A stretch of 64,000 bases of DNA, taken from positions 29,691-93,690 of the forward strand of contig DAOUKH010000003.1 of the NCBI GenBank assembly GCA_034421515.1, given 5' to 3'. This stretch comes from Dehalococcoidia bacterium (GTDB taxonomy: Bacteria; Chloroflexota; Dehalococcoidia; SHYB01). This document shows positions 2,990-64,000 of the stretch, in pieces. Within the stretch, counting starts at the first letter, position 1. Each line of letters opens with the position of its first letter. The position numbers were made by a program, and so were the translations under genes. A model generated the notes under the pieces. It searched no databases. It saw only the letters and a program-made list of their open reading frames with translations, and was not told where the DNA came from.

Positions 2990-4684
2990 CTACCCCGCCG
3001 CCGACTCGACGCGGCGGGAGACGGGGGCGCCTTGCTCGTGGTTGTTCACGAAGCCGCGCGACTGGTTCTTTTCGGGGTCGCCGGCGAGCATGAGGCCGAT
3101 CCACTCCGGCTTGGAGAAGACGGGGACGAGCCGGTCGGGGTCGGCCGACTCGACGTAGGCGGGCGGCGCGGACCCCGACGCAGCGAGCGCGGGCAGGTCG
3201 AAGTCGTAGGTCGAGGCGCGGCGGGCGTACTCCTGCAGCCGCCGCGCGGGTATCTTCGACCGCTCGTAGAGGAACGCGCGCACGTCGTCCTTGGACATGC
3301 CGTCGCGCGCGATCACCGACGCCGTCGCCGGGCTCATCGCAAGCAGCGGACACCAGCGCCCAAAGATGGCGGCGTTGAACGACCAGTACTCGTTCTCCAT
3401 CCCGAAGACGTCGGCGAGCATGCCCAACAGGTCTTCGGCGCGGTCGCCGATCGTGTAGATCGGGGGGCTGATGCTGACCACGCTCTGCACGGTGACGACG
3501 CTCTCATTGGGCGCGAAGCCCCGGTCCATGGCAAACGTGGGCCAGCCGATCTCGCGAGCGGCGGGCTCGTTCTCCGCGATGGCCATGTTGAACGTCGCGC
3601 CGAAGGCCGCCTTGTCGCCGCTGCCCGGCGGCGTGCGCAGTCCGGCGACGTTGCGCATGTAGAGGCGGACGAAGCGCCCCACGCTGCTATTGGCGCGGTT
3701 GCCGACGCGCAGGACGCCCGCGCCGGAGGCGAAACCGAGGCGTTCGATCACCGGGCCGCCGACGATGACCAGCGGCTCCCACCCCGGCGTGCTGCCCGCA
3801 TCCTCGAGGCGGAACTCGGGGTCGGCGATGGCCTTGACCGCCGCGACGAGCACCGGCATGTACTCGGGGCGGCATCCCGCCATCACGCCGTTGACGGCGA
3901 CGCTCCACACCGTGGCGAGCCGGTTGTCGGGCGGCAGCGTGCCGAGCGGTTCGTCGGCGTCGCGCGGCGTGCGGCGGAGGAACTCCTCGACCCGGTCAAC
4001 CGTCGGCGGGACGATGGGGAGCCCGTCGGTCCAGAGGAGGGAGTCAAAGCGTTCCTGCACCGCGTCGAGCGGGCCGTGAAAGACGATGTCGCGCGGCGCG
4101 GGTTCGGACTCCTCGCCTGCCAGACCCAGCGGCTTCGAAAAGGCCTCGGTCAAATCATCGGCGAGCGCGAGCACCTTGCCGCGGAACGCCTCCGGCGAGT
4201 CAGTAGCGATGACGCCGGGGTACTCGACGTGCGGCAGCGCTTCGACGCCCAGACCGCGGGCCACGGCGGCGGCTTGGCCCTTGAACGCCGTGGCAAGGAC
4301 GGAGACCGAGGGCACGCCGGCGCGCTCCGCTTCGACGCTGGCCCGCACCACGGCGGGGGTGCAGCTCCCTCAGGAGCCGACCGCCGCGACGACGGCATCC
4401 ACCCCCAGTTCGCGGAGCGCGTCGGGGATGCCCGCCATCACCTCGCGCTCGTCGGCGCCGTGGATGTTGCCAAAGGTGTCCCAGTCGACGAAGCGCGCGC
4501 CCGGCGCCCGCTCGGCGAGGACTTCCTTCATCAGCTCGAACATGCGGTCGCCCTTGAACAGGCCGTTCCACAGGAAGCCGATGGTCTTGCCGTTCAGGCC
4601 GTTCGGCCGGGGCGCGGGACGCAGCGCGCGGCGCGCCCGGGGCGCCAGCGGCCAGACGACCTCGTACGCCGGTTCGTTCGGCAT
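2990..4684 (-). CDS. UGSC-family selenoprotein fused to a conserved partner domain; in-frame UGA (Sec) at 4370-4372
   Basis: ORFs 4370..4684 and 2990..4351 share one frame and are separated only by TGA. Read-through gives ...AVVAAVGS-U-GSCTPAVV..., the U-G-S-C motif. A hairpin follows the UGA. The C-terminal ~400 aa matches paralogs at 59070-60152 and 62675-63718 (DGLPIVPPT, AVNGVMAGC). Confidence 0.7.
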
Positions 4685-43160: not shown

Positions 43161-44199
43161 ACCCCAGCAACACGCGCTCGTCCCCGCGCTGCTCGACGAC
43201 CTCACCAATGACGACCGCCTCGGGCGCCTGCTCCACGACCGCGCCCACGTGCTCCGGCGCGGTGAACACCGTCATCCCGATCCCCATGTTGAAGGCGCGC
43301 CACATCTCCTCGTCGGCGACGTCGCCCGCCCGCTGAATCATCCGAAAGATCTCGGGAACTTCCCACGCGGACCGGTCGAACCGCGCGGCGACCCCGTCGG
43401 GCAGGACGCGCGGCACGTTGCCGGGCAAGCCGCCGCCGGTAATGTGCGCCATGCCGCGAATCCACTCCAACGCCGGCTGCAACGGCTTCAGGTAGGAGCG
43501 GTGCGGTTCGAGGAGCGCCTCGCCCAGCGTGCCGCCAAGCGCGTCGTGGCGCTCGTCGAGCCGCGCCGGGTCGTCGTCGGTCCCCAGGGCGCGCCGGGCC
43601 AGGGTGTAGCCGTTGGTGTGCAGGCCGCTGGAGGGCAGACCCAGAATCGCGTCGCCCGGTCGAATGGCGCCGCCGTCGATGACCCCGTCCCGCTCGACGG
43701 CCCCGACGATGAAGCCGACGAGGTCGAAGTCGCCGCGCTTGTAGAGGCTGGGCAGCTCGGCGGTCTCCCCGCCGACCAGGGCGCAGTTGTTGTCGCGGCA
43801 GGCCGAGGCCACGCCCATGACGACGCGCTCGACCTGCTCGGGGTCGAGCTTGCCGATGCCGATGTAGTCGAGGAAGAAGAGCGGCTCCGCGCCGCCCACG
43901 AAGATGTCGTTGACGCAGTGGTTCACGAGATCGACGCCGATGGTGTCGAACCGCCCCATCTGTATGGCCAGCAGCACCTTCGTCCCCACGGAGTCGGTGC
44001 TGGAGACGAGCACCGGGTTGGCGTACCCGCCGAGTTGGAAGAGCCCGCCGAAGAAGCCGACACCGCCGACCACCTCAGGGCGGCGCGTCGAGGCCGCGAG
44101 TGGCTTGATGAGTGCGGCGGCCCGTTCGCCGGCGTCGATGTCGACCCCGGCGTCGGCGTAGGTCAGCGCGCCGGCGCTGCTCCCGGAACCCTTCCCCAT
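43159..44199 (-). CDS. purM: phosphoribosylformylglycinamidine cyclo-ligase (AIR synthase)
   Basis: 346 aa; PurM N- and C-domain signatures (GGLFQLGGYANPVLVSSTDSVGTK, HITGGGL). Confidence 0.9.
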   Translation of the reverse strand: MGKGSGSSAGALTYADAGVDIDAGERAAALIKPLAASTRRPEVVGGVGFFGGLFQLGGYANPVLVSSTDSVGTKVLLAIQMGRFDTIGVDLVNHCVNDIFVGGAEPLFFLDYIGIGKLDPEQVERVVMGVASACRDNNCALVGGETAELPSLYKRGDFDLVGFIVGAVERDGVIDGGAIRPGDAILGLPSSGLHTNGYTLARRALGTDDDPARLDERHDALGGTLGEALLEPHRSYLKPLQPALEWIRGMAHITGGGLPGNVPRVLPDGVAARFDRSAWEVPEIFRMIQRAGDVADEEMWRAFNMGIGMTVFTAPEHVGAVVEQAPEAVVIGEVVEQRGDERVLLG

Positions 44200-48122: not shown

Positions 48123-48243
48123 TTCCGACCTCCTCGCCTGGGCCTAGCGTAATCTGAGGGCGGACGCGTCCGGCGGCCGCCCGGCCCACCTTACCTTATA
48201 TCATGTTCGCGCGTAACGTGCTCGCCGTGTGGAAGTCGAGAAG

Positions 48244-48325
48244 TGGGGAAGAGGAGACTCGAACTCCTACGCCTTTCGGCACATGATCCTAAATCATGCT
48301 CGTCTGCCAATTCCGACACTTCCCC
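48244..48325 (-). tRNA. tRNA-Leu (UAG)
   Basis: Minus strand: GGGGAAG...anticodon loop uuUAGga...long variable arm...CTTCCCC-A; no encoded CCA. Confidence 0.8.
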
Positions 48326-48362
48326 ATCGCGGGCCCCGGCCCAGCGTCCGAGCCTGGCGCGA

Positions 48363-48438
48363 TGGTGAGCCGCACAGGACTCGAACCTGTAACCTACTGA
48401 TTAAGAGTCAGTTGCTCTACCAATTGAGCTAGCGGCCC
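48363..48438 (-). tRNA. tRNA-Lys (CUU)
   Basis: Minus strand: GGGCCGCTAGCTCAATTGGTAGAGCAACTGACTCTTAATCAGTAGGTTACAGGTTCGAGTCCTGTGCGGCTCACCA. Confidence 0.85.
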
Positions 48439-48519
48439 CCGGACCCACCCGGTGGAGCGCGGAGCGTAGCACACGCCTCCATACCGGTCAATCCGTTGCG
48501 CAACCCCTGTTGGCGTGGG

Positions 48520-48845
48520 TCATTTCCGGCGCCTCGCCGTAGGGGCAACCCTCGTAGACTGGCCGAACACCTTAAGCCTCCCTCCCTCCGGGAGGGACTG
48601 AGGGAGGGCACGGGCCGGGAGGTCTCACCCCTTCTCCCCACGGGAGAAGGTTGGGATGAGGGGCCCCGCGTCAACCACCGGCGCCCTAGCAAAGAACGCC
48701 GACTCGGAGCGCCATCCTCGGGCCTGTCTCCCCTCTGGCGCCCCCTTAAACCTCTCCCCCGCTGGGGGAGACTGAGAGAGGGCACGCGCCGCAGGCGCGT
48801 CGGAGGGCGGGGGCCGGGAGGACGGTATGCTTTGGGCGAGCCCCA
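48520..48845. repeat. composite palindromic intergenic repeat, two units (downstream of tRNA-Lys)
   Basis: Same modules as above: gtaggggcaaccctcgtag..., ccttaagcctccctccctccgggagggactgagggagggcacg..., ccttaaacctctcccccgctgggggagactgagagagggcacgcgccgcaggcgcg. Confidence 0.65.
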
Positions 48846-48884
48846 GGGTCGCCTGGGGTGTCGGCGAACTGAGGCAGTGACAGC

Positions 48885-50426
48885 GTGAACAGCGCCTTTT
48901 CTCAGCGATGCCAGGCGGCGCTCACCCATCCGGTGACGCTGGCCGCAATCGCAGTGCTGGTGGTGAACGACCTGGCGCTGAAGGCGCTGTGGCCGTCGCC
49001 TTGGACGACGGGCAAGCTGAGCGACCTGGCGTGGGTCGTCTTCGCATCGCCCTTGCTGGCCTTCCTGCTGTCGTTGGCTACACCCAGGAATGCTTACGCG
49101 GAGCGGGCGGTCTTCGCGGCCGCCTACATAGGGCTCCCGCTCCTGTACGCCGCGTTCAACACCCTGGAACCGGTGCATGACTGGATCTCGAGCGGGCTGG
49201 GGCTGCTGGCGGGGAGGCCGACCGGAGGGACGCCGGACCCGACCGACTCGCTGGTCATTCCCCTAGGCTTGGCGGCGGCCCTCTGGGTCTGGCGCCGCGG
49301 CGCCGCCAATCAGAGCGACGTACGCCAGCGGCTCGTCTTGCTCACTGCCGGCTTCGCCGCGTTCGCGTCGGTGGCGAGCGGCCCACCTCCTCATGAGCTT
49401 GGGGTCGTAGACGTGGGCGTGGGAGAAGACGGTGTCCTCATCGCGCGCAGTGTGGACGGTCACGAGGGCCTCGTAGAACCGGAGGGTGGCCAGCACTACA
49501 TGAGCACCGACGGCGGTTCCTCATGGGGCGATGGGGAATGGGTCGACCGAGAGATAGCGGGGGCTATCGCGTGGGGCGGGCAGACCGCGGAAACTCCGCG
49601 AGGGACCTATTCCGTCAATACGACGGGTATCGCCCTGACTAGCGATGGCACGTCGGAAACCGTCTATTCCACGGAGTTCCTGGGAGACCCTGCCAACCGG
49701 TTGCAGCATGAAGTAGCCACCAAACGATTTAGTGAGCGGATGCTAAGGTTTTCCCCGCGAAGCATCGTCTATCACGAAGCAAGCGGCAACGTGATAGCGA
49801 CCTTGGGGCTCCAGGGCGTGGTTGTGGGTGACGCCGACGAGGTCTGGCAGAGGATAGCGGTGGGGCGCTACTCGCCGACGGACTTTTCGGCGAGCGGCAA
49901 GCTGCGGACCATCTTTTCCCGCGCCGCGTTCTGGTTCACCGGACTCGCGGTCGCCGCCTCCTTGACGGCGTCGGCATTGGCATTGGCGCGCGTGGCGCCG
50001 AACTGGGCGCTGGGAAGAATCCTCTTCGCCATCGCCGCCGCCACAGCAGCCATTGTCGCCTTGCTTCTCCTCTTCTCCACCGAGACCAGCACGCCGATCG
50101 GCGAGGGGGTCCTCAGGGAACCGGACATCCTGTTCACTTTTGGAGCGGTGATGATGTTGCTCTTCTCGCTGTGGTCGGCGCTGGCCGTCGCGGCGTCGAT
50201 CTTGCCGCGGCGACAGTATCTTCTCGCGGCGTTCGTCGCTCTGCTGGCGATGATGGCGCTCTTTGCGGTGTCCTTCTTGATTGCCATCGCGCAGGAGGTG
50301 CGTACCGCCAAATTGTTCGCCTTACTCCTTGTCTTCCTGGCCGCGGTCTCGTTCTACGTCTACCTTCGGAGGAAGCTGTCGGAGGAGCAACCGGCCTTGC
50401 CGGAGGGAGGGCCGCCCAGAGGGTGA
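48885..50426 (+). CDS. hypothetical polytopic membrane protein
   Basis: 513 aa; several TM helices at both ends and a central soluble region; lies between the tRNA-Lys and the terminase module. Confidence 0.45.
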   Translation: MNSAFSQRCQAALTHPVTLAAIAVLVVNDLALKALWPSPWTTGKLSDLAWVVFASPLLAFLLSLATPRNAYAERAVFAAAYIGLPLLYAAFNTLEPVHDWISSGLGLLAGRPTGGTPDPTDSLVIPLGLAAALWVWRRGAANQSDVRQRLVLLTAGFAAFASVASGPPPHELGVVDVGVGEDGVLIARSVDGHEGLVEPEGGQHYMSTDGGSSWGDGEWVDREIAGAIAWGGQTAETPRGTYSVNTTGIALTSDGTSETVYSTEFLGDPANRLQHEVATKRFSERMLRFSPRSIVYHEASGNVIATLGLQGVVVGDADEVWQRIAVGRYSPTDFSASGKLRTIFSRAAFWFTGLAVAASLTASALALARVAPNWALGRILFAIAAATAAIVALLLLFSTETSTPIGEGVLREPDILFTFGAVMMLLFSLWSALAVAASILPRRQYLLAAFVALLAMMALFAVSFLIAIAQEVRTAKLFALLLVFLAAVSFYVYLRRKLSEEQPALPEGGPPRG

Positions 50427-50499
50427 GGCGCGACCTTGCCGCCTTCGGCCCCGTTGGCCTTGCTTCGCCCCAAAATGGATTTTCGGCCGAAATGAGCTA

Positions 50500-50550
50500 T
50501 TGACAGCCTTGTCAAGGGGGTTTATCGTTAGAGTACAGAACGTACGTTCT
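50500..50550 (+). promoter_or_regulatory. sigma70-like promoter (TTGACA-N18-TATCGT) overlapped by a Cheo-type LexA box AGAACGTACGTTCT
   Basis: TTGACAgcctTGTCAA at 50500-50515; -10 candidates TATCGT (50524-29) or TAGAGT (50529-34); perfect 14-bp palindrome AGAACGTACGTTCT at 50537-50550 matches the Gram-positive/actinobacterial SOS box GAAC-N4-GTTC. Confidence 0.45.
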
Positions 50551-50593
50551 CTAGCGGGGCGGCCCAAAACGGCCCTCCGCGCACCCGCCGAAG

Positions 50594-50630
50594 ACCCGCT
50601 CCCCGCGAGCGGGTCTCGCGGTTTAAGGGG
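50594..50630 (+). terminator. GC-rich hairpin followed by a T-tract; candidate intrinsic terminator for the 48885..50426 gene
   Basis: GACCCGCTCG-CCC-CGAGCGGGTC stem followed by tcgcggttt. Confidence 0.3.
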
Positions 50631-50636
50631 CCTGCG

Positions 50637-50712
50637 GGTCGTGAGCTTCGTGAGCGTTCGTACAGGTAGGGCGTCGTGAGCGTCGTGAGCGCCATGAGCG
50701 TTCGTGAGCGCT
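50637..50712 (+). repeat. array of six CGTGAGCG-like direct repeats at roughly 9-10 bp spacing (iteron-like)
   Basis: cgtgagct/cgtgagcg/cgtgagcg/cgtgagcg/catgagcg/cgtgagcg between the promoter and the terminase small-subunit RBS. Confidence 0.4.
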
Positions 50713-50755
50713 TTTGACATGCGCGCGCCGCGAAGGCGCGGGAGGAGGGAGTCGA

Positions 50756-51565
50756 ATGGCAAGGGGTAAGAAGGGGCCGGCGCGGACGTCGAGGCGGCGG
50801 CGAGAGATGGAGGAACGGCAGCGGGTGTTTCTGGACGCGTTGCGGCGGACCGGGGATGCGGAGGCGGCAAGGGCGTCGATCGATGTCGGCGAGTCGACAG
50901 TGCGGCGATGGAGGGGGAAGGACGATGTGTTCCGAGCCGCGTACAAGGAGGCGCAGGGAGCCAAGGGGGCGGCTCCGGAGGGGCGGCCGAAATTCACGGG
51001 GCGGAAGCGGGTGTTCCTGGATGCATTCGAGCGGGCGGGGGTAGTAGCGGCGGCGCTGCGCGCGGCGGAGGCGACGGCGAAGGATCTGCGTCGATGGGTG
51101 CGGGATGACGCGGAGTTTCTGGACTCATACGTGGAGGCAAGGGGGCGCATCCGGGCGCGGGCCGACGAGGAGACGGAGCGACGGATCGCGGCAGGGGAGC
51201 AGGTCTCGGCAGCAGGGCGGAAGCGGGTCTTCTTGAAGCATCTGGCGAGCGTGGGCACGACGACGGGAGGCTGCGAGGCAGCGGGGATCACCTTGAAGAC
51301 GCTGAAGGAGTGGCTGGAGAGGGATGAGTTCGCGGAGGCGTTCGCGGAGGCGAAGCAGCGTTTCCGGGACCACATCGAGGAAGCGATCGTGCAGCGGATC
51401 GATGAAGGGAAGAACGGAGGGCTGCTCCAATTCAAGGCGCGGGCGGAGCTTCCTGAAAAGTACGGGAAGGGGGAAAAGACCCCGCCGAAGGAGCAGGCCG
51501 GCGTGACCTGGGAGGATATCGAGCGGGCAGCGAGGGAGCCATATGACGCGACAGGAGCGTGTTAA
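50756..51565 (+). CDS. phage terminase small subunit-like protein (three HTH-like repeats)
   Basis: GGAGGAGGGA RBS upstream; three copies of R(Q/K)RVFLDAL-x-GxxxxAxxxxxVxxxTxxRWRxxDxxFxxAYxEA, the motif of small-terminase DNA-binding domains. Confidence 0.55.
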   Translation: MARGKKGPARTSRRRREMEERQRVFLDALRRTGDAEAARASIDVGESTVRRWRGKDDVFRAAYKEAQGAKGAAPEGRPKFTGRKRVFLDAFERAGVVAAALRAAEATAKDLRRWVRDDAEFLDSYVEARGRIRARADEETERRIAAGEQVSAAGRKRVFLKHLASVGTTTGGCEAAGITLKTLKEWLERDEFAEAFAEAKQRFRDHIEEAIVQRIDEGKNGGLLQFKARAELPEKYGKGEKTPPKEQAGVTWEDIERAAREPYDATGAC

Positions 51566-52931
51566 GTTTGAGCGGCGGTGTCAAGACGACCCCGCGTTCT
51601 TCTTTCGGCACGTGCTCGGCTGGACGCCGTGGGCGAAGCAGGCGGAGATCGCGCGGGCGGTGGCGGAAGCGGTGCGCGGCGCGGGCCCGCGGCGGGTGGC
51701 GGTGCGGAGCGGGAACGGCGTGGGGAAGACGGCACTGGCGGCGCGGCTGATGCTGTGGGCGCTGCAGAGCCACCCCTCGAGCGTGGTGGTGACGACGGCG
51801 CCGACGCAGCGTCAGGTGACGGAGCTGCTGTGGCGGGAGGCGCGGTCGGCGTACTACCGGGCGCGGGTGCCACTGGGCGGGGTCTTCTACGAGGGGCAGC
51901 CGCGGTGGGACTTCGGGCCGCGGCGGTACGCGATCGGGGTGAGCCCGGAGCACACCCGGCCGGAGGCGTTCCAGGGCTTCCACGCCGACCTGATCGTGTT
52001 CCTGGTCGACGAGGCAAGCGGGGTGCCGGCGGCGCACTGGGAGGCGATCAAGGGGTCGCTGCTGGCGGGGAACGCGGCAGTGCTGGCGATCGGGAACCCG
52101 ACGCGGCTGGAGGGGGAGTTCTACGACGCCTTCCACGGCCAGGCTGCCCTGTGGCGGCGGCTGCACATCTCGGCGTTCGACACGCCGAACCTGACGGGCG
52201 GCGACGTGCCGGGCCTGGTGACACCGGCGGCGGTGGCCGAGGCGGCGCGGGACTGGGGCGAGGAGAGTCCGCTCTATCAGATCCGGGTGCTGGGCGAATT
52301 TCCCTCGGCGGCGAGCCATCAGCTCATCCGCTTCGAGTGGACCGAGCAGGCGGCGGAGGCCCCGTCGGCGGGCGGCGGCTTCGCCCTCGGCGTCGACGTG
52401 GCGCGGAGCGGCGAGGACGAGACGGCGGCGGTGCTGCTGGAAGGCAACCGCCTGGCGCGCCTGCAGCGCTGGCTGGGACAGAACACGATGCGGACCGTCG
52501 CCGAGATCAAGGGCCTCGTAGACGAGCTCGGCGAGGTGGCGGTCGCGGTGGACGACGGCGGGGTCGGCGGCGGCGTGGTCGACCGGCTGCGGGAGCTGGA
52601 CGTGCGGGTCTACGCGGTGAAGTTCGGGGCGGCGGCGGATGGGCGGTCGTCGGTGCATTTCAAGAACAAGCTCGCCGAGATGTACTGGCGGCTGCGCGAG
52701 CGCCTGGAGGCTGGGACGCTGCGGCTGCCGCAGGAAGCGTCGTTGACGGGAGGCGGCAAGCTCGCGGCGCAACTGGCGCAGATCGAGTGGGAAGTCGAGA
52801 GCGACCGGGTGATCCGGGTCCACAAGCGGGGTCTGTCGGGCCACGCGCCGAGCCCGGACATCGCGGACGCGCTCGCCTTGGCGCTGGAGGCGCAGGCGCG
52901 GTCGGAGCGCGGCGCGGGCGTGTGGTTTTAG
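51543..52931 (+). CDS. phage terminase large subunit
   Basis: Walker A GNGVGKT, Walker B LVFLVDEAS; C-terminal RNase-H-like nuclease region with acidic residues; overlaps the small-subunit gene. Confidence 0.8.
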   Translation: MTRQERVKFERRCQDDPAFFFRHVLGWTPWAKQAEIARAVAEAVRGAGPRRVAVRSGNGVGKTALAARLMLWALQSHPSSVVVTTAPTQRQVTELLWREARSAYYRARVPLGGVFYEGQPRWDFGPRRYAIGVSPEHTRPEAFQGFHADLIVFLVDEASGVPAAHWEAIKGSLLAGNAAVLAIGNPTRLEGEFYDAFHGQAALWRRLHISAFDTPNLTGGDVPGLVTPAAVAEAARDWGEESPLYQIRVLGEFPSAASHQLIRFEWTEQAAEAPSAGGGFALGVDVARSGEDETAAVLLEGNRLARLQRWLGQNTMRTVAEIKGLVDELGEVAVAVDDGGVGGGVVDRLRELDVRVYAVKFGAAADGRSSVHFKNKLAEMYWRLRERLEAGTLRLPQEASLTGGGKLAAQLAQIEWEVESDRVIRVHKRGLSGHAPSPDIADALALALEAQARSERGAGVWF

Positions 52932-55006: not shown

Positions 55007-55807
55007 TCAGAGTCCTTGGAGGGCGGCGGTGCTGAAGACGACAGAGAAGGGTTTGCAGTAGATGACGACGCTGTTGAAGGCCGAGACGTCGACGCCCGCC
55101 GGGACCGTGTAGTTCTGGTTCCCCCGGTTGCCCTTGAGTCTGCCGAGGTCGAGGTACTCGCCCTGCTTCACCTCGTCCGGCCTCGCCGGGTCGGCGTGGG
55201 AGGACAAGATCACGTGGAGCGCCGGCCCGTTCGTGACCGAGAAGTTCTCCAGGCGGAGCAGGTGGCCGCCGCCGGGCGCGGTGTAGATGATGGCCTGACC
55301 GCTGCCGCGGTGGAAGCTGTCGGCGTCCTTGAAGTCGCCCTGCTTCAGCCGCTGGACTTCGCCCTCGGAGTCGGCGGCGGCTTTCATTGCGCCCATCGCG
55401 TCGCCGGCGGCGAGCATCGACCCGGCGTCCATGGCCGCTGCTTCGGGCAGCGCCTCCCGCATCAGCGGGTCGTCGACCATGGCCATGCCGGCCATCACGC
55501 CCTCGACGTCGGCCATCTCCATGCCCTCGGGCAGCACGGCGTTGACGGCGAAGGGGAACTCCTCCTCGACCGTGACGTTGATGAACAGCGGCGATCCAAG
55601 CGACCAGCCGAGCCAGAGCGTAAGGGCCAAGATCGGGACCGAAGCGATTCCGAAGGCCACGCGGTGGCGCAGGATGACCTGGTGCCAGCCCTGCCGATAG
55701 CCGTAGGCGAGGAGGGCGGCGATAAAGGCGATGGTGAGGCCGCCGATGAGCCAGCGGTACTCATAGAGGTTGGCGAGTGCACGTTCGACGTCACCGATGG
55801 TGGACAT
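55007..55807 (-). CDS. DM13-domain protein with N-terminal TM anchor
   Basis: C-terminal GSGQAIIYTAPGGGHLLRLENFSVTNGPALHVILS...NSVVIYCKPFSVVF matches DM13. Confidence 0.55.
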   Translation of the reverse strand: MSTIGDVERALANLYEYRWLIGGLTIAFIAALLAYGYRQGWHQVILRHRVAFGIASVPILALTLWLGWSLGSPLFINVTVEEEFPFAVNAVLPEGMEMADVEGVMAGMAMVDDPLMREALPEAAAMDAGSMLAAGDAMGAMKAAADSEGEVQRLKQGDFKDADSFHRGSGQAIIYTAPGGGHLLRLENFSVTNGPALHVILSSHADPARPDEVKQGEYLDLGRLKGNRGNQNYTVPAGVDVSAFNSVVIYCKPFSVVFSTAALQGL

Positions 55808-58924: not shown

Positions 58925-59075
58925 TTGTGGGGGAGCGGGCGCGTCGCGACGCGCCCCTACAGGGAAGGGGCACCCCTCCCGGCCCCCGCCCTCCGACGCG
59001 CCTGCGGCGCGTGCCCTCTCTCAGTCTCCCCCAGAGGGGGAGAGGTTAAGGTGCCACCTGCGGGGGCGGTTAGGC
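58925..59075. repeat. composite palindromic intergenic repeat (between the cupin gene and the UGSC locus)
   Basis: cctacagggaaggggcaccc... plus cgcctgcggcgcgtgccctctctcagtctcccccagagggggagaggttaagg. Confidence 0.6.
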
Positions 59076-60152
59076 GGGGGCGGGCCTGATCGGGCGGCTG
59101 GTGGCCCAGCCGCCCATGTAGCCCCAGGACTGGATGCAGGCGCAGAAGCCGGCCTGGAGTCCGCCGGCCACGGTGATGAGCAGGTCTTCGGGCTTGCGCA
59201 GCACGGCGAGCATCGTGGTGTCGTCGAGGTCGTCGGGGGTTGCAGGCCAGACGTCCTCGGGCGCGCCGGCGTCCCACTGGATGCGACCGCGGTCAAGCAT
59301 GGTCTTCAGCGATACGAGGGCCCGCTCGTGGACGTGCTCCCCGATGGCCTGCTTCGACCAGCCGGCGTCGTAGAGCGGCTGGGCGACAAGGGGATTGAGC
59401 ACGAAGAAGACCTGCCCTCCGCGGCGGATGGTGTGCCAGCAGACCCGCACTTGCTCGATCATATCGAGCAAGGAGGCGTCGGGTTCGCGCGAGCCGCCGT
59501 ACTGGACGGGGCTGTCGCAGCCGATGACGGTGACGCCGCCGGCGCTGTCCACGCCGAAGTCGGCATGGAGCGGACCCCAGGGCGCGTCGGGCGACTCGCC
59601 GATGCAGTAGACGTACTTGCCGGGCGAGCCGAGGACGGACTTGTCACCCGTCTCCGGGTAGCCGCCGCCGAGCACCATCATCACGAGGCGCAGCGCCCGC
59701 CCGATCGTGGCGTTGGCGCGGTAGCCGGGCCCGAAGGCGCTGGTGCCGTAGTTGATTTCGAGGTCGTCGACGACCGGGCCGCTGACGATCACCAGCGGCC
59801 CCGCGGGGTGCGTCGTGGCCTGGAGCCCGTTGAGGTTGAAGCGCTCGTCGAGGGCGGCCTCGACGGCGGCCAGCACCACGGGGAAGTAGTCGGGACGGCA
59901 GCCCGCCATCACGGCGTTGGCGGCGACGGTCTCGATGGTGGCCACTCCCATGCGCGGCGGCACCGGCCCGAGGACCTCTTGAGGGTCGCGCCCGCTGCCC
60001 TCGACCATGCGCTCGATGAGGTCGGGGGTCGGTGGGATGATGGGCAGGCCGTCGGTCCAGCCCTTGCGGTAGAACTCCTCGATGGTCTCGATGCAGGAGT
60101 CCCAGCTATCGGCCGCGGTGAAGGTGGACGCCGCTTCGCCGGACTGGGTCAT
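59070..60152 (-). CDS. UGSC-associated conserved partner protein (paralog 2), separate gene
   Basis: MTQSGEAASTF...WTDGLPIIPPT...AANAVMAGCRPDYFPVVLAAVEA...; its ATG overlaps the UGSC gene stop as ATGA. Paralog of the C-terminal domain of 2990..4684 and of 62675..63718. Confidence 0.6.
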   Translation of the reverse strand: MTQSGEAASTFTAADSWDSCIETIEEFYRKGWTDGLPIIPPTPDLIERMVEGSGRDPQEVLGPVPPRMGVATIETVAANAVMAGCRPDYFPVVLAAVEAALDERFNLNGLQATTHPAGPLVIVSGPVVDDLEINYGTSAFGPGYRANATIGRALRLVMMVLGGGYPETGDKSVLGSPGKYVYCIGESPDAPWGPLHADFGVDSAGGVTVIGCDSPVQYGGSREPDASLLDMIEQVRVCWHTIRRGGQVFFVLNPLVAQPLYDAGWSKQAIGEHVHERALVSLKTMLDRGRIQWDAGAPEDVWPATPDDLDDTTMLAVLRKPEDLLITVAGGLQAGFCACIQSWGYMGGWATSRPIRPAPA

Positions 60153-60766
60153 GGCCGGTTTGCGGCTCGCGCGGCCGTTGGGGGCTCGGCGGATTTCGGG
60201 GTCAGCGTCCCTTCCATCAGCCATCGGACTACGCCGGGGTAGGCCGCTTCGCCCTGGGCCCGGTTGGCCTCGGCGTCGCCGAGATAGCCGGGGAGGATGA
60301 CGGGCTCGAATTCCTCGCAGCGCAGGTGGCGCCGCTTCATGAACGCCAACTGGCGGAAGACGTCGAGGATGACGACGGCGGCGGGGATGCCGTCGGTCTC
60401 GAAGGTGATCCCGTCGTGCATACAGCACGACGTGCAGGAGCCTCAGGCCCCGACGCCGATCACCATGGAGTCGACCTGCGCCTTCAGCTCCTCGTACATG
60501 TCCGGCGGGACCCGGGCCGAGAGGTTGGGCTTGCGTTTGAGGATTACTTGGTCGACGCCGTTATGTTCCTGTAGGAGCTCGCCGATGCGCTCAAGGACGA
60601 TGTGGCTGTCTTGGACGCCGTCGTCGAGCAGGCCGACGGTCTTCCCCCGGAGGGTGTCCACACGTCTGGCGAGGGAGGTTGGCTCGCGCCAGACGTGGCC
60701 GGACGGGTCGACGACGGTGATTTCTCGGTTCACGGTCTGCGCCATGGCGTTAGCCGTGCGGGTCAT
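60149..60766 (-). CDS. UGSC-family selenoprotein (stand-alone); in-frame UGA (Sec) at 60443-60445
   Basis: ORFs 60443..60802 and 60149..60421 are in one frame, separated only by TGA: ...MVIGVGA-U-GSCTSCCMHDG.... A perfect 8-bp stem hairpin (CGUCGUGC-UGUAU-GCACGACG) starts 10 nt after the UGA. Start set at ATG 60766, which overlaps the upstream hicB-like stop. Confidence 0.7.
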
Positions 60767-60996
60767 CTTGCAGCGCTTGGGGTGGGAGGGTTGAAGGTCC
60801 ACCCCTCTTTTTCCATATCGTCAATGTAAATGCGCAGGACATCGTCGGCGTTACGGATGGCATCATCCAGGGTCTTCCCAGTCGCCGCTACGCCGTCGAT
60901 ATCAGGAAAGGTCACCCAGTACATGCCCTTCTCCCGTTCTATCAGCGCGGGATATGTCAGCATGCCGTCACTCCCAACCGCAATACCTGAATGCAC
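60763..60996 (-). CDS. HicB-like (UPF0150) antitoxin-family protein
   Basis: 77 aa; ...YWVTFPDIDGVAATGKTLDDAIRNADDVLRIYIDDM... Confidence 0.55.
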   Translation of the reverse strand: MHSGIAVGSDGMLTYPALIEREKGMYWVTFPDIDGVAATGKTLDDAIRNADDVLRIYIDDMEKEGWTFNPPTPSAAR

Positions 60997-61005
60997 CGGC
61001 GGAAG

Positions 61006-61221
61006 TCACGCCTGCATCAGGCGTTCGCCCTTCGGCTCCGGAATCGGGTCGCCGAACTCTCGCGCCGTCTCAAGCCACAAGTCCATAGCCTCGTTGATGT
61101 GCACCAAGGCCGCCTCCTGCGTGTCGCCGTGGGCGGCGCAACCCGGAAGCTCGGGCACTTCGGCCACGAAGGCACCGTCTTCGTTGCTCCAATAGATGAT
61201 GATCTCGTACTTGTGCATCAT
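61006..61221 (-). CDS. hicB: HicB-family antitoxin
   Basis: 71 aa; YEIIIYWSNEDGAFVAEVPELPGCAAHGDTQEAALVHINEAMDLWLE. Confidence 0.7.
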   Translation of the reverse strand: MMHKYEIIIYWSNEDGAFVAEVPELPGCAAHGDTQEAALVHINEAMDLWLETAREFGDPIPEPKGERLMQA

Positions 61222-61475
61222 GATCCCTCTTCAAGCCGGTGTCTCAGGATGACATGACGGACCTGTCGGACCTGGTAGGGCTTGGCATGGTTGCCGTCGC
61301 GCTGCAAATTCACCCGTTCCCGGACGCCTTCTTTCCTGAAGATGTGATGACTGCCCCGCGTCCGCTCAACGAATCCTAAGCGTAGCAGGAATAGCCGCAG
61401 GTCGTCGAAGCGGACATTTGCGTCTGACCGACCGCTGAGAATCCTGTGGCGTAACTCGTTGCTGCGAGATGTCAT
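61218..61475 (-). CDS. hicA: HicA-family toxin
   Basis: 85 aa; ...LGFVERTRGSHHIFRKEGVRERVNLQRDGNHAKPYQVRQV...; overlaps hicB by 4 nt. Confidence 0.7.
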   Translation of the reverse strand: MTSRSNELRHRILSGRSDANVRFDDLRLFLLRLGFVERTRGSHHIFRKEGVRERVNLQRDGNHAKPYQVRQVRHVILRHRLEEGS

Positions 61476-61487
61476 CGCCGTCGCGCC

Positions 61488-62672
61488 CTAACCCCTATGC
61501 CCACGCCGGCGGACGTGGGCGGCGCTGAGGTCGGCGACGCTGGGGCAGCCGAGGAGGGCCAGGGCGCGGCGGAGCTCGGTGCGGAGGAGATCGAGGGCGC
61601 GGTCGACGCCGGGCTCGCCGCCGGCGCCGATGCCGTAGAGGTAGGCGCGTCCGATGGCGACGGCGCGCGCGCCGAGGGCCAGCGCCTTCGCCACGTCGGC
61701 GCCGCGGCGGACGCCGCCGTCGAGGATGACCTCGGCCCGGCCCGCCACCGACTCGACGACGGCGGGCAGCGCGTCGAGGGCCGCCGGGGCGTGGTCGAGC
61801 TGGCGCCCGCCGTGGTTCGACACGACGATCCCCTGCGCGCCGAGCGACGCCGCCCGCGCCGCATCCTCGGGGTCGAGTATCCCCTTGACCGCGAAGGGGC
61901 CGTTCCACTCGGCGATCATCCATTCCAGGTCGTCCCACGTCACCGAGGGGTCGAACTGGGTGTTGATGTACGTCCACAGCGCGGTGAGGTCGCCGCGGCC
62001 CGCGTCGCCCTGGCCCGCGACGTTGGCGAACCCGATGCGGCGACTCGTCAGGAAGTTCCACCACCACGACGGATGCAGCGCCGCGTCGAAGGCCGCCCCC
62101 AGGGTGAGCGACGGTGGGATGGTCATGCCGTTCCGGAGGTCGCGCTCCCGCTGGCCGAAGACGGGCATGTCGGCGGTGAGCATCAGGGCGTCGTAGCCGG
62201 CGTCGCGGCAGCGGCTGAAGAACTCGCGGACGAGCCCCCGGTCCTTCCAGACGTAGATCTGGAACCAGTTCGGGCCGTCGGACGCCGCGGCGAGCTCCTC
62301 GATCGACAGCGTGCTCAACGAGGAGAGCGAGTAGATCAGCCCGGCCCGGTGGGCCGACCGCGCCGCGGCGGCCTCGCCCTCGTGGTGGAAGAGCCGCGTC
62401 ATGCCCGTCGGCGCGAGCATGACCGGCATCGATACCGGCGTCCCCAGGACGGTGGTGGAGAGATCGACCGTCGACACGTCCCGAAGCACGCGGGGCAGGA
62501 GCTCGTAGTCCTGGAACGCCGCCTCGTTACGCCGCGCCGTGACCTCGTCCTCGGCGGCGCCGTCGGCGTAGTCGAACACGGCGCGGGGCAGGCGGCGCAT
62601 AGCGAGGCGGCGCAGGTCGGCGATGGAGTGGCAGCGGGCCAGCCGCGCCTCGGTGGAGAAGGGGAGCGGCAT
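61488..62672 (-). CDS. FMN-dependent alpha-hydroxy acid dehydrogenase/oxidase (LldD/glycolate oxidase family)
   Basis: Start set at MPLPFSTEAR...; FMN-binding TIM-barrel motifs (...VSNHGGRQLD..., LDGGVRRGADV); its ATG lies 3 nt after the stop of paralog 3. Confidence 0.8.
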   Translation of the reverse strand: MPLPFSTEARLARCHSIADLRRLAMRRLPRAVFDYADGAAEDEVTARRNEAAFQDYELLPRVLRDVSTVDLSTTVLGTPVSMPVMLAPTGMTRLFHHEGEAAAARSAHRAGLIYSLSSLSTLSIEELAAASDGPNWFQIYVWKDRGLVREFFSRCRDAGYDALMLTADMPVFGQRERDLRNGMTIPPSLTLGAAFDAALHPSWWWNFLTSRRIGFANVAGQGDAGRGDLTALWTYINTQFDPSVTWDDLEWMIAEWNGPFAVKGILDPEDAARAASLGAQGIVVSNHGGRQLDHAPAALDALPAVVESVAGRAEVILDGGVRRGADVAKALALGARAVAIGRAYLYGIGAGGEPGVDRALDLLRTELRRALALLGCPSVADLSAAHVRRRGHRG

Positions 62673-62674
62673 CG

Positions 62675-63718
62675 CTACCGCCGTATCGGCTTGGTGACCG
62701 ACTTGGGCGAGCCGAACGACGGCATGTAGGTCGAGTGCAGGCCGCCGTCGCCGCCGGCCACGGCGATCATCCAATAGTCCGCCGTCGGCACCATCGGGTA
62801 CATGCCGTCCACGATCAGGTCGGGGCGGGTGTCGCGGCGGCTTCTCGCGGTCGCGTGGATGCGGTCGCCGGGCAGGCGGGTGTGTTCGTGGAAGTAGCGC
62901 TTGACGTCGTCCTTCGACCAGCCCCCTTCGGCCAGGGCGCGGGCGTGGCCGGGGTTGAAGACCACCAGCGGCTCGCCGGTGAAAAGGGAGAACTGCGTGA
63001 TCGCGGGCGCGGTCATCGTCTGCGCGAAGGCGGCCATGCCGCCCTCGGCCATGACACGGTCGCCGTAGGTGCAGTTCAGCGTCGTGTTGGGCGCGATGAC
63101 GGTGACGCAGCTCTCGTCCGCGTCGAAGCCGCGTTCGACGTGGAGCGGGTCCCAGGGGCTCTCTTCTTCATTCTCGCCGAAGCACAGAGAGAATTTGCCG
63201 GGAAAGCCCTGCGTCGCCTTGTCGACCTCGCCGGGCACGGCGCCCCCGATGTTGAGCAGAATCAGGCGGACGGCCCGCCCGATCGAGGCGTTGGCGCGGG
63301 TTCCCGGCCCGAGGCACCCGGCGCCGGAGTTGATCCCGATCTCGTGGCGGATAGGGCCGTTCACAATGACGCCGACCCCCACGGGGTTGGTGGTGGTCTG
63401 GATGCTGTAGAGGAGGAACTCCTCCTCGGTCATCGCCTCGACGGCGGTGGCGACCACCGGCATGTGCTCGGGCAGGCAGCCCGCCATCACCGCGTTCACC
63501 GCGACCTTCTCGACGGTGGCCTCGGCCACCGCAGGGTGCACGACGCCGAGGACGTCGTCGGGCGCCCGACCCGACGCGGCGACCATCGCCGCGACGCGCT
63601 CCTCCGTGGGCGGCACGATGGGCAGCCCGTCGGTCATGCCGCGGGCGTGGAAATACTCGATGGCCTCGTCGTAGCCGCCCGCGGAGACGCGCGTGGAGGT
63701 GAGGTGTGGGTCGGCCAT
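62675..63718 (-). CDS. UGSC-associated conserved partner protein (paralog 3)
   Basis: MADPHLTST...MTDGLPIVPPT...AVNAVMAGCLPEHMPVVATAVEA...GAGCLGPGTRANASIGRAVRL. Confidence 0.6.
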   Translation of the reverse strand: MADPHLTSTRVSAGGYDEAIEYFHARGMTDGLPIVPPTEERVAAMVAASGRAPDDVLGVVHPAVAEATVEKVAVNAVMAGCLPEHMPVVATAVEAMTEEEFLLYSIQTTTNPVGVGVIVNGPIRHEIGINSGAGCLGPGTRANASIGRAVRLILLNIGGAVPGEVDKATQGFPGKFSLCFGENEEESPWDPLHVERGFDADESCVTVIAPNTTLNCTYGDRVMAEGGMAAFAQTMTAPAITQFSLFTGEPLVVFNPGHARALAEGGWSKDDVKRYFHEHTRLPGDRIHATARSRRDTRPDLIVDGMYPMVPTADYWMIAVAGGDGGLHSTYMPSFGSPKSVTKPIRR

Positions 63719-63723
63719 CGCGG

Positions 63724-64000
63724 CTATGCCTCGGACGCCTCGGCGGGAACGTTCACCACGCCCCGGTCAGGGACCAGGAGGGCGGCGACGGCGGCGTCGA
63801 GCGCCCGGTAGGCGATTTCGCGGACCAAGGGTTCGTCAAGCGTGTCGTAGGGGAAGGGGAGGATGACCTGGGGCAGCGCCGGCATCCCCCGGCCCTTCGC
63901 CGAGGCCGCCGCCAGGGCTTGGAAGGCCTTGGTGCTCACGGTCACCGTGGGGATGCCCTGCTTCTCGATCTCGATGCTGTCGTGGATACACCACGCGGTG
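63724..64000 (-). CDS. UGSC-family protein, 3' part only; the U/C-G-S-C motif lies just beyond the window end
   Basis: In-frame translation to the window edge: TAWCIHDSIEIEKQGIPTVTVSTKAFQAL...PQVILPFPYDTLDEPLVREIAYRALDAAV...*. It aligns with the post-UGSC region of the other two copies (CMHDGITFETDGIPAAVVILDVF...EPVILPGYLGD...). Confidence 0.5.
   Translation of the reverse strand, partial: TAWCIHDSIEIEKQGIPTVTVSTKAFQALAAASAKGRGMPALPQVILPFPYDTLDEPLVREIAYRALDAAVAALLVPDRGVVNVPAEASEA

What the first reader, a model, noticed from the sequence alone, without database searches (positions are those of the whole stretch)
59070..60766. Second UGSC selenoprotein locus, split form, with a strong SECIS-like hairpin and ATGA coupling to the partner gene
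At 60149-60766 on the minus strand an in-frame TGA (60443-60445) gives ...MVIGVGA-U-GSCTSCCMHDG.... A perfect 8-bp stem hairpin, CGUCGUGC-UGUAU-GCACGACG, starts 10 nt downstream at about 60412-60432. That position and size match a bacterial SECIS. The UGSC gene ends in ATGA, overlapping the start of a 360-aa paralog (59070-60152) of the domain that is fused at the first locus. The UGSC gene start also overlaps the stop of an upstream hicB-like gene (ATGA). So these genes are tightly translationally coupled.
Basis: seen in the sequence. Interest (0 to 1): 0.8.

Follow-up and report, generated by a model that had tools for sequence, protein, structure and literature searches.

The report
Known UGSC selenoprotein with obligate partner
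This is a genuine selenocysteine-encoding gene of the already catalogued "UGSC" family, with a conserved recoding hairpin and an always-adjacent partner gene of unknown function; it is a correct but largely ordinary find, and the unannotated partner family is its most useful lead.

Summary
There is an in-frame TGA (60443-60445, minus strand) and a perfect 8-bp hairpin 10 nt downstream (60412-60432). ATGA overlaps sit at both ends of the gene.

The gene belongs to the curated UGSC family (Pfam PF24696, NCBIfam NF041046), known since 2005-2008. In 80 related loci, 72 of 80 UGSC hits carry TGA at this codon and 4 carry Cys.

The hairpin alone is not beyond chance: 4 of 1,351 TGAs in the window have one as good. 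Across 70 homologues, however, it keeps its register and shows compensatory changes. Its synonymous sites are frozen, and it has a loop G/U at +23/+24, as in the E. coli fdhF SECIS.

The 360-aa partner belongs to a large family (about 4,900 clusters at 50% identity) with no Pfam or NCBIfam model and no close solved fold. It lies next to, or is fused with, a UGSC gene in 72 of 87 informative cases.

The window holds three such modules, not two. The hicB overlap is strain-specific, and the conserved start is probably ATG 60745. The modelled UGSC fold is flavodoxin-like, not thioredoxin-like. The biochemical function remains unknown.

The parts
60149..60766 (-). UGSC2 gene, a Sec-type UGSC family selenoprotein. 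It is 205 codons from ATG 60766. The conserved start is more likely ATG 60745 (MAQTVNRE...), which gives 198 codons.
   Evidence: Pfam PF24696 scores 131.8 bits against a cutoff of 25. NCBIfam NF041046 scores 93.2 bits, below its equivalog cutoff of 125. The domain match runs across the TGA.
60443..60445 (-). In-frame UGA read as selenocysteine (the U of UGSC).
   Evidence: The same alignment column is TGA in 72 of 80 UGSC hits and Cys (TGC/TGT) in 4. Natural Cys-type proteins align a Cys at this position.
60412..60432 (-). SECIS hairpin with an 8-bp stem and the loop UGUAU. The loop G lies at +23 (60423) and the loop U at +24 (60422), counted from the U of UGA.
   Evidence: Folding is. It keeps the same register in 70 homologues with covariation. 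Synonymous sites are frozen. The G23/U24 geometry matches the E. coli SECIS description in PMC8659212.
59070..60152 (-). Partner2, a 360-aa protein of a large unannotated family. Invariant residues include the DGLPxxPP motif, Cys85 in VMAGC, and R145, N147, R152 and R155.
   Evidence: There is no Pfam or NCBIfam hit. The family has at least 7,990 clusters at 90% identity and 4,926 representatives at 50% identity. The AF2 model has pLDDT 89. No close PDB fold exists.
60149..60152 (-). ATGA stop/start overlap between UGSC2 and partner2.
   Evidence: Read directly from the sequence. Five of 22 split UGSC-to-partner modules and all 4 Cys-type loci also have overlapping stop and start.
60763..60960 (-). 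hicB-like gene 2, strain-specific. Its TGA stop overlaps ATG 60766.
   Evidence: Pfam HicB_lk_antitox, E = 2.6e-10. It is absent from L002.
61006..61475 (-). hicA (61218-61475) and hicB (61006-61221) toxin-antitoxin pair. It lies between module 3 with its FMN dehydrogenase and module 2.
   Evidence: Pfam HicA_toxin and HicB_lk_antitox/UPF0150.
62675..63718 (-). Partner3, 347 aa and 40% identical to partner2.
   Evidence: and the partner HMM hit.
63724..64000 (-). The 3' part of UGSC3, cut by the window end. The UGA would lie at about 64009-64011. The hairpin core is at 63991-63995 and 63981-63985, with loop UGUAU.
   Evidence: Pfam UGSC, E = 8e-07, covering the C-terminal part. The L002 orthologue reads INGLGN-U-GSCTAWCIH with TGA.
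2990..4684 (-). Module 1, a UGSC-partner fusion. The TGA is at 4370-4372. Its SECIS-type hairpin is CCCGC/GCGGG at 4353-4357 and 4342-4346, with loop CGUGGU.
   Evidence: Homologous fusions (L029, L053, L063, L073) share this GC-rich hairpin variant.

Best explanation
UGSC2 is a bona fide member of the known UGSC selenoprotein family in a Dehalococcoidia genome. Its internal UGA is recoded to selenocysteine by the standard bacterial SelB/tRNA-Sec route. Recoding is directed by the hairpin immediately downstream, which presents a G-U in its apical loop at +23/+24. The gene is co-transcribed, and probably translationally coupled, with the downstream 360-aa partner. The two products most likely work as one two-subunit protein, which in other genomes, and at locus 1 of this window, is a single fused chain. 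In that protein UGSC is a small flavodoxin-like domain carrying the Sec at the N-terminus of a helix. I infer that it supplies the reactive selenol to a site on the partner, whose invariant Cys85 is the obvious counterpart. Status of each step: family membership, conservation of TGA, RNA-level selection on the hairpin, adjacency and fusion are shown. Sec insertion in vivo, physical complex formation and the Sec-Cys85 chemistry are inferred. The substrate is unknown; the variable catabolic neighbourhood suggests small organic acids or aromatic breakdown products.
For: Family: Pfam PF24696 scores 131.8 bits across the TGA, and NCBI names homologues 'UGSC family (seleno)protein'. TGA conservation: 72 U, 4 C, 1 Q and 3 partial hits that do not cover the column, in 80 hits from Chloroflexota, Methylomirabilota, Binatia, Betaproteobacteria, Nitrospinota and Actinomycetota. 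SECIS: the 57-column alignment of 70 sequences is ungapped. The core pairs are paired in 90-100% of sequences. Pair 24:30 is C:G in 47 and G:C in 19. The covariation score is 0.207 against 0.103 in shuffles (0 of 500 reach it) and 0.027-0.133 in slid registers. Third-position entropy is 0.78 bits inside the hairpin and 1.48 outside. The codon at columns 19-21 encodes Ser, Ala or Thr but ends in G in 61 of 70. The loop Ser is AGU in 48 of 51 and the loop Cys is UGU in 9 of 9. G+23/U+24 occurs in 60 of 70 Sec-type genes and 1 of 8 Cys-type genes. This matches the E. coli SECIS geometry. Sec capacity in the lineage: a tRNA-Sec lies about 900 nt from the UGSC gene in Dehalococcoidia MAG L033 (RF01852 at 67.6 bits). 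Dehalococcoidia MAGs with 46-49 selenoproteins are on record. Partner link: 40 partner-then-UGSC, 23 UGSC-then-partner and 9 fused, out of 87 informative partner genes. All 4 Cys-type UGSC genes found from the UGSC side are followed by the partner. Natural full-length fusions exist. Spacing is 30 nt or less in most modules. Fold: the UGSC AF2 model has pLDDT 88 and a five-stranded parallel alpha/beta domain with the Cys/Sec at a helix N-terminus.
Against: No Sec machinery is present in the 64-kb window, and I could not search the rest of the source MAG. The hairpin alone is not statistically unusual. The stem is largely retained in 6 of 8 Cys-type genes, so part of it may be a by-product of the conserved S-[CW]-x-[VI]-H-D peptide or a relic. 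There is no bulged U, unlike E. coli fdhF. The NCBIfam equivalog cutoff is not reached (93 against 125 bits). Complex formation and the Sec-Cys85 pairing rest only on adjacency, fusion and residue invariance; no complex model could be computed. Three of 75 UGSC genes lack the +3 Cys, so a simple intradomain UxxC redox couple is not universal. Fifteen partner genes have no UGSC within 700 nt.
Confidence: 0.78

Rival explanations
1. The TGA is a real stop. The locus would then be a pseudogene, or two separate small genes of 119 aa and 90 aa, and the hairpin would be incidental.
For: Gene callers split it this way: the public contig L001 has 107-aa and 90-aa calls. TGA is also the ordinary stop of this gene and of hicB2. 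A hairpin this good follows 4 of 1,351 TGAs by chance.
Against: The same in-frame TGA is kept in 72 homologues across several phyla, with conserved coding sequence on both sides and Cys at that position in the remainder. The Pfam domain runs through it. Synonymous sites downstream are constrained to keep the hairpin and the loop GU.
Confidence: 0.04
2. Sec is inserted, but the conserved hairpin is mainly a by-product of the conserved peptide (T-S-C/W-S-V/I-H-D) or a relic. It would not itself be the functional SECIS.
For: Six of 8 Cys-type genes keep 4-5 of the 5 core pairs and fold at about -9 to -11 kcal/mol, close to the Sec-type mean of -10.8. There is no bulged U.
Against: Amino acids vary while paired third positions stay fixed (TCG, GCG, ACG). 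The Val/Ile/Leu third base switches G to C together with UGC to UGG (19 sequences). The rare codon AGU is used for the loop Ser in 48 of 51. Cys-type genes relax these constraints: mean core pairs fall from 4.67 to 3.75, and the GU loop is present in 1 of 8. No alternative structure is conserved.
Confidence: 0.1
3. UGSC acts alone as a thioredoxin-like thiol/selenol oxidoreductase, as the literature suggests. The partner would then be just one of its substrates or an unrelated neighbour.
For: The 2008 GOS paper calls it 'likely Trx-like' with a UxxC motif. DSBA, GSHPx and AhpD-like (CMD) genes occasionally lie nearby. Fifteen partner genes lack an adjacent UGSC.
Confidence: 0.1
4. The Sec/Cys cluster of UGSC (U-x-x-C-x-x-C) and partner Cys85 ligate a metal or Fe-S centre at the subunit interface. 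The pair would then be a hydro-lyase-like enzyme for organic acids rather than a redox couple.
Against: TM-scores are only 0.25-0.29 and the alignments cover about a third of the chain. The partner has a single invariant Cys. Twenty-five UGSC genes have only UxxC and 3 have only U. The weak Pfam hit is far below threshold.
Confidence: 0.12

Closest known systems
UGSC family (seleno)protein (NCBIfam NF041046; Pfam PF24696). This is the 'UGSC-containing protein' of Zhang and Gladyshev (2007 NAR, PMC1976440; 2008 PLoS Genet, PMC2398784).
   Same: The domain is the same, and so is the U-G-S-C motif at the same aligned position. Sec-type members strongly predominate over Cys-type (255 against 21 in GOS; 72 against 4 here). 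It occurs in aquatic and environmental bacteria, and its function is unknown.
   Different: Nothing essential differs. UGSC2 scores below NCBIfam's strict equivalog cutoff, so it belongs to a divergent Dehalococcoidia branch. The modelled fold is flavodoxin-like, not the 'Trx-like' fold suggested in 2008.
UGSC/Unknown_1 fusion (Zhang and Gladyshev 2008, Fig. S1A).
   Same: [quoted passage not shown] That is exactly the architecture of locus 1, with loci 2 and 3 as the split form.
   Different: I could not verify that Unknown_1 is this partner family, because the figure is held only as an image. The 2008 paper describes Unknown_1 as limited to a few aquatic organisms. The partner family here has about 4,900 clusters at 50% identity across many phyla, including haloarchaea.
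E. coli fdhF-type bacterial SECIS (SelB-binding hairpin).
   Same: It lies inside the coding sequence immediately 3' of the UGA, with a spacer of about 10-11 nt. The apical loop presents G at +23 and U at +24.
   Different: The stem is perfect, with no bulged U17. The fused subfamily, which includes locus 1, uses a GC-rich 5-6-bp stem and a 6-nt loop with the GU one position earlier. Rfam has no model for it.
Substrate-specific selenoprotein reductase systems (glycine reductase GrdB/GrdE, D-proline reductase PrdB/PrdA). This comparison rests on my own knowledge.
   Same: It may work similarly: a Sec in a UxxC-type motif on one polypeptide, acting together with a second, co-encoded catalytic polypeptide.
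   Different: No sequence relationship was detected. No PDB or Pfam hit links them. There is no evidence for a pyruvoyl proprotein. This is an analogy only, not membership.
Class I ([4Fe-4S]) fumarate hydratase and Fe-S L-serine dehydratase catalytic domains, compared with the partner.
   Same: These are the weak best structural matches by two methods. The modules are sometimes found among organic-acid genes.

Membership tests
UGSC family (Pfam PF24696) | The domain HMM scores above Pfam's gathering threshold. | tested here: met
   131.8 bits against a cutoff of 25. The match covers residues 17-175 and spans the Sec codon, with U replaced by C.
UGSC family (NCBIfam NF041046, equivalog) | The score reaches the curated equivalog cutoff of 125 bits. 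| tested here: not met
   93.2 bits, E = 1.4e-26. UGSC2 is a family relative but sits below NCBI's strict naming threshold.
UGSC family | A U/C-G-S-C motif at the conserved position after beta-strand 3. | tested here: met
   VGA-U-GSC aligns with U in 72 hits and C in 4 of 80, and with the CGSC of natural Cys-type proteins.
Bacterial SECIS (SelB-dependent) | A stem-loop within the ORF starting about 11 nt 3' of the UGA. | tested here: met
   The stem starts 10 nt after the UGA. The register is the same in 70 homologues.
Bacterial SECIS (SelB-dependent) | Conserved G (and U) in the apical loop, equivalent to E. coli G23/U24. | tested here: met
   G+23/U+24 occurs in 60 of 70 Sec-type genes and in 1 of 8 Cys-type genes. 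The reference geometry comes from PMC8659212.
Bacterial SECIS (SelB-dependent) | The structure is maintained by compensatory change. | tested here: met
   The covariation score is 0.207 against 0.103 in shuffles (0 of 500 reach it). Pair 24:30 is CG in 47 and GC in 19. Third-position entropy is 0.78 against 1.48 bits.
Bacterial SECIS (E. coli fdhF type) | A bulged U (U17) in the upper stem. | tested here: not met
   The stem is a perfect 8 bp with no bulge. To my knowledge this feature is not required outside the enterobacterial type.
Bacterial SECIS / selenoprotein | The host encodes selA, selB, selD and tRNA-Sec, and Sec is actually incorporated. | not testable with these tools
   None of these is in the window. 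Indirect support: a tRNA-Sec lies next to the module in Dehalococcoidia MAG L033, and the lineage is known to be selenoprotein-rich.
Thioredoxin-fold oxidoreductases (the literature's suggestion for UGSC) | A thioredoxin fold, with a mixed beta-sheet and CxxC at the helix alpha-1 N-terminus. | tested here: not met
Class I fumarate hydratase / Fe-S hydro-lyases (for the partner) | Whole-domain structural similarity and a three-Cys [4Fe-4S] ligand set. | tested here: not met
HicAB toxin-antitoxin (upstream neighbours) | HicA toxin and HicB antitoxin domains in adjacent small genes. | tested here: met
   HicA_toxin at E = 1.2e-06, and HicB_lk_antitox at E = 2.9e-10 and 2.6e-10. The linkage to UGSC is not conserved.

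The most novel reading that the evidence does not exclude
UGSC plus its partner is a previously uncharacterised, very widespread two-subunit (or fused) selenoenzyme. Its catalytic subunit has a fold with no solved relative, and its active site is an inter-subunit Sec-Cys85 pair (or a Sec-ligated metal site). It would act on small organic substrates in the catabolic gene islands of Dehalococcoidia, Methylomirabilota, Binatia and others. If so, this would give one of the most abundant environmental selenoprotein families its first functional handle.
Probability: 0.35. Interest if true: 0.65.

Novelty: new member of a known kind. Interest (0 to 1): 0.35.

Why it matters
UGSC proteins are among the most abundant selenoproteins in aquatic metagenomes. 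They were the most frequent family in several non-marine GOS samples, yet nearly twenty years on they are still listed as "function unknown". This locus adds no new kind of element. The follow-up does sharpen the picture in ways that can be tested. First, the UGSC gene almost never stands alone: it is paired or fused with one specific family of about 350 aa that has no Pfam or NCBIfam model and no solved structural relative. Second, the UGSC domain is modelled as flavodoxin-like rather than thioredoxin-like. Third, the only invariant reactive residues are the Sec/Cys of UGSC and Cys85 of the partner. Fourth, the family's SECIS is simple and highly conserved, which should help annotation pipelines that still split these genes at the TGA.

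Tried and rejected
1. Rfam. The gathering scan of the window found only four tRNAs. A permissive scan of 60300-60550 found only noise. Rfam offers no bacterial SECIS model for this element.

2. Word-indexed protein search with UGSC2. It returned only 3 hits, because database entries are truncated at the TGA.

3. Modelling the window's own Sec proteins. I used a natural Cys-type UGSC from Natrialba instead.

4. AFDB Foldseek search for the partner. The library was unavailable.

5. PDB sequence searches with profiles of both families. Nothing was significant.

6. Verifying that "Unknown_1" of the 2008 paper is this partner. The figure is held only as an image and the sequence supplement is cut.

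7. Looking for a fixed third gene. A Pfam scan of 142 neighbours gave 207 families with none dominant. The FTR-like domain seen fused in P0288 is absent from all 80 loci.

8. Sec machinery in the window. None was found. The AIRS-domain gene at 43162-44199 is purM by context, lying between purF and purH, and is not selD.

9. L064 as a natural Cys-type fusion. Rejected: it has a TGA stop followed by an ATG in the same frame.

10. Model coordinates are not exposed to scripts, so I could not test whether the partner's invariant residues cluster in space.
Full report
THE OBSERVATION

- The frame opening at ATG 60766 runs to a TGA at 60149-60151.
- It contains one internal TGA at 60443-60445, in the context MVIGVGA*GSCTSCCMHDG.
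- Ten nucleotides after that TGA lies a perfect 8-bp hairpin, CGUCGUGC-UGUAU-GCACGACG (60432-60412).
- The final TGA overlaps the ATG of a 360-codon ORF (59070-60152) as ATGA.
- The ATG at 60766 overlaps the TGA stop of a small upstream ORF.

In a 46-nt context the hairpin folds at -19.3 kcal/mol, with z = -2.5 against dinucleotide shuffles. That is not rare in a window of 67.6% G+C. Four of the 1,351 TGA triplets on the two strands are followed by a perfect stem of at least 8 bp at SECIS spacing. First-order Markov simulated sequences of the same composition give 0-4. The hairpin taken alone is therefore weak evidence.

WHAT THE GENE IS

With U replaced by C, the product matches Pfam PF24696 "UGSC family" at 131.8 bits (cutoff 25), and the match runs across the TGA. 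It matches NCBIfam NF041046 "UGSC family (seleno)protein" at 93 bits, below that model's strict equivalog cutoff of 125.

The family is established in the literature:
- In 2007 it was called a [quoted passage not shown].
- The same study suggested a Trx-like fold and noted a "UGSC/Unknown_1" fusion.
- Reviews from 2022 and 2026 still list it without a function.

The source organism is a Dehalococcoidia bacterium. A MAG contig (L002, DAOUKZ010000254.1) carries the same arrangement at 96% protein identity.

THERE ARE THREE MODULES, NOT TWO

- the fused gene at 2990-4684, with its TGA at 4370-4372;
- the split pair of the finding;
- a third split pair at the window edge.

In the third pair, partner3 lies at 62675-63718 and the 3' part of UGSC3 runs from 63724 to beyond 64000. 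The window ends about 9 nt short of UGSC3's UGA but includes its hairpin (GCGUGG-UGUAU-CCACGA). The L002 orthologue shows the TGA.

Modules 3 and 2 lie in tandem. They are separated by an FMN-dependent alpha-hydroxy-acid dehydrogenase gene and a hicA-hicB-hicB cassette.

IS THE UGA READ AS SEC?

I used the three in-window partner paralogues to seed a scan of one genome per species. It returned 597 relatives, of which 80 loci were kept. HMM searches of stop-tolerant six-frame translations found 80 UGSC domain hits in these loci, the window and one public contig that duplicates the window. The Sec column is TGA in 72 and Cys in 4. The Cys cases are Natrialba, a Sphingomonas MAG, Candidimonas and a Methanobacteriaceae MAG. 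One degenerate copy has Gln, and the other 3 hits are partial and do not cover the Sec column.

The 70 distinct Sec-type sequences align without a single gap over 57 nt around the UGA. The hairpin occupies the same register throughout.

Against the proposed structure:
- The five core pairs are paired in 90-100% of sequences.
- Pair 24:30 is C:G in 47 sequences and G:C in 19.
- The covariation score is 0.207, against 0.103 ± 0.012 in shuffles. None of 500 shuffles reaches it.
- Slid registers score 0.027-0.133.

Because this is coding sequence, I also examined codon positions:
- The codon at columns 19-21 encodes Ser (TCG, 30), Ala (GCG, 20) or Thr (ACG, 9). The amino acid drifts, but the paired third base stays G.
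- The Val/Ile/Leu codon at columns 28-30 ends in G when its partner codon is UGC (GUG, 38). It ends in C when the partner codon is UGG (AUC, CUC or GUC, 19).
- The loop Ser uses the rare codon AGU in 48 of 51 cases, and the loop Cys is UGU in 9 of 9.
- Mean third-position entropy is 0.78 bits inside the hairpin and 1.48 bits outside it.

The conserved loop G and U fall at +23 and +24 from the U of UGA. These are the positions of the essential G23/U24 in the E. coli SECIS, whose minimal stem-loop spans nt 15-31 and lies 11 nt after the UGA.

As a control I collected eight natural Cys-type genes. They keep much of the stem, with a mean of 3.75 core pairs against 4.67. They lose the G/U loop signature, which is present in 1 of 8 against 60 of 70. 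They also use TCC and TGC where Sec-type genes use TCG and UGU. The stem is therefore partly entangled with the conserved peptide or is a relic. The synonymous-site constraints are specific to genes that must recode a UGA.

The window itself contains no Sec machinery. The lineage clearly decodes Sec, however. A Dehalococcoidia MAG (L033) carries a tRNA-Sec about 900 nt from its UGSC gene (RF01852 at 67.6 bits). Dehalococcoidia MAGs with 46-49 selenoproteins are on record.

THE PARTNER

The 360-aa product has no Pfam or NCBIfam match, but it belongs to a very large family:
- at least 7,990 clusters at 90% identity, from a capped search;
- 4,926 representatives at 50% identity with E ≤ 1e-3;
- all labelled "hypothetical".

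Invariant residues across 44 diverse members include the DGLPxxPP motif, Cys85 in VMAGC, R145, N147, R152, R155 and W192.

Of 94 partner genes in the loci, 7 sit at contig edges. Among the other 87:
- 40 are immediately followed by a UGSC gene;
- 23 are immediately preceded by one;
- 9 are fused to one in frame;
- 15 have none within 700 nt.

Starting instead from the UGSC side, all four Cys-type UGSC genes I looked up are followed by the partner, with overlapping stop and start. Spacing is 30 nt or less in most split modules, and 4-nt overlaps like the one here recur. Natural full-length fusions of about 540-560 aa exist. There are also tandem double-partner proteins, and one fusion carries a ferredoxin:thioredoxin-reductase catalytic domain.

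Variable gene order combined with recurrent fusion is the usual signature of two subunits of one protein.

No third gene is fixed. A Pfam scan of 142 neighbours gave 207 families. The most frequent were luciferase-like monooxygenases (11) and NHL repeats (7), with a scatter of SDR, FMN dehydrogenase, CoA-transferase, amidohydrolase, cupin, LigB and HpaB. In the window the neighbours are likewise MFS transporters, SDRs, a cupin and an FMN dehydrogenase.

THE UGSC FOLD

The window's own Sec proteins could not be submitted for modelling. I therefore modelled a natural Cys-type member from Natrialba asiatica, whose name in NCBI is "UGSC family (seleno)protein". The model has pLDDT 88. It is a three-layer alpha/beta/alpha domain with five parallel strands, and the Cys/Sec sits at the N-terminus of the helix after strand 3.

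The motif is UGSC in 62 of 75 genes, and 3 genes lack the +3 Cys altogether. The only universally conserved reactive residues of the module are therefore the Sec/Cys and the partner's Cys85.

THE hicB CLAIM

The ATGA at 60763-60766 is real, but the nearest relative (L002) lacks this second hicB copy. Nucleotide homology between the two strains begins about 5 nt upstream of the ATG at 60745. In L002 that is the only available ATG, and a GAGG precedes it. The conserved start is therefore most likely 60745 (MAQTVNRE...). The hicB overlap is a strain-specific consequence of a toxin-antitoxin insertion, not part of the module.

VERDICT

This is a Sec-type UGSC gene with a functional-looking bacterial SECIS, co-expressed with its cognate partner.

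It is a new member of a known kind. The family, its Sec usage and a UGSC fusion to an unknown conserved domain were already published and are curated. The score of 0.8 is too high.

The follow-up adds several things:
- a quantified SECIS consensus;
- the near-obligate pairing with a very large, unannotated family that has no solved structural relative;
- a corrected fold assignment for UGSC;
- the hypothesis of an inter-subunit Sec-Cys85 site.

The biochemical function remains unknown.

Noticed in passing
window 62675-64000 (minus strand): There is a third UGSC-partner module that the finding does not mention. Partner3 lies at 62675-63718, and the 3' part of UGSC3 is cut by the window end. The SECIS hairpin core is inside the window (63981-63995), but the UGA lies about 9 nt beyond it. 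An FMN-dependent alpha-hydroxy-acid dehydrogenase gene (61488-62774) follows directly.
   Followed up: yes
window 59070-60152; 62675-63718; 2990-4084: The partner family is very large, with about 4,900 clusters at 50% identity and at least 7,990 at 90%. It spans many bacterial phyla and haloarchaea. It has no Pfam or NCBIfam model, and its confident AF2 fold has no close PDB relative. It looks like a good candidate for a new family definition.
   Followed up: partly
P0288 (metagenomic protein, 549 aa): This protein is a UGSC-partner fusion carrying a C-terminal ferredoxin:thioredoxin reductase catalytic-subunit domain (PF02943, E = 1.4e-16, with a CTC...CPC...HCDC motif). That hints at an Fe-S-dependent disulfide or selenosulfide reductase as electron donor. 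No such gene occurs in the 80 fetched loci.
   Followed up: partly
P0282, P0296, P0307, P0316, P0333, P0340; L068 3135-6271: Proteins of about 710-740 aa contain two tandem partner domains. L068 has three partner genes in a row, with its UGSC gene about 4 kb further on. The partner may therefore oligomerise or act without a 1:1 UGSC ratio.
   Followed up: no
L033 8446-8543 (minus strand): A tRNA-Sec gene (anticodon UCA; Rfam RF01852 at 67.6 bits) lies about 900 nt downstream of the UGSC gene in Dehalococcoidia MAG UBA1123.
   Followed up: yes
window 60763-61475 compared with L002 2912-4300: The hicA-hicB-hicB cassette between modules 3 and 2 differs between two strains that are 96% identical in the flanking genes. 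L002 has only one hicB and about 1.1 kb of other sequence. The intergenic slot appears to be a hotspot for toxin-antitoxin turnover.
   Followed up: partly
L059, L081, L070; P0300: Some UGSC variants lack the +3 'resolving' Cys: UGSS, UGTS and the Cys-type CGAS. All of them are fused to the partner. This argues that the intradomain UxxC couple is dispensable when the partner is attached.
   Followed up: partly
alignment A5 (Cys-type UGSC proteins), C-terminus: Cys-type UGSC proteins from haloarchaea and Alphaproteobacteria end in a conserved ...L.CP[IL] or ...CEI tail, with a nearly invariant Cys. The window's Sec-type proteins lack this tail.
   Followed up: no
window 48243-52931: Next to tRNA-Leu and tRNA-Lys (48243-48438) lie three ORFs. 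Two have no Pfam match (48885-50426 and 51543-52931). The third has a weak hit to the phage Sf6 small terminase subunit (50714-51565, 27.8 bits). This may be a remnant of an integrated element.
   Followed up: no
window 55007-55009 (minus); 27526 (minus); 59831 (plus): These are the other TGAs followed by a perfect hairpin of at least 8 bp at SECIS spacing. The one at 55009 is the stop codon of the DM13-domain gene, so its 9-bp hairpin is probably a terminator. The one at 59831 lies antisense inside partner2. All three are treated as chance or terminator matches.
   Followed up: partly
L082 (Salinigranum rubrum CP026309.1, 692407-701039): The haloarchaeal Cys-type module sits in a cluster with two MmgE/PrpD genes, AcnX-type aconitase subunits, a family III CoA-transferase, an acyl-CoA dehydrogenase and DUF6282. 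This organic-acid context, in a culturable host, could guide substrate screening.
   Followed up: no
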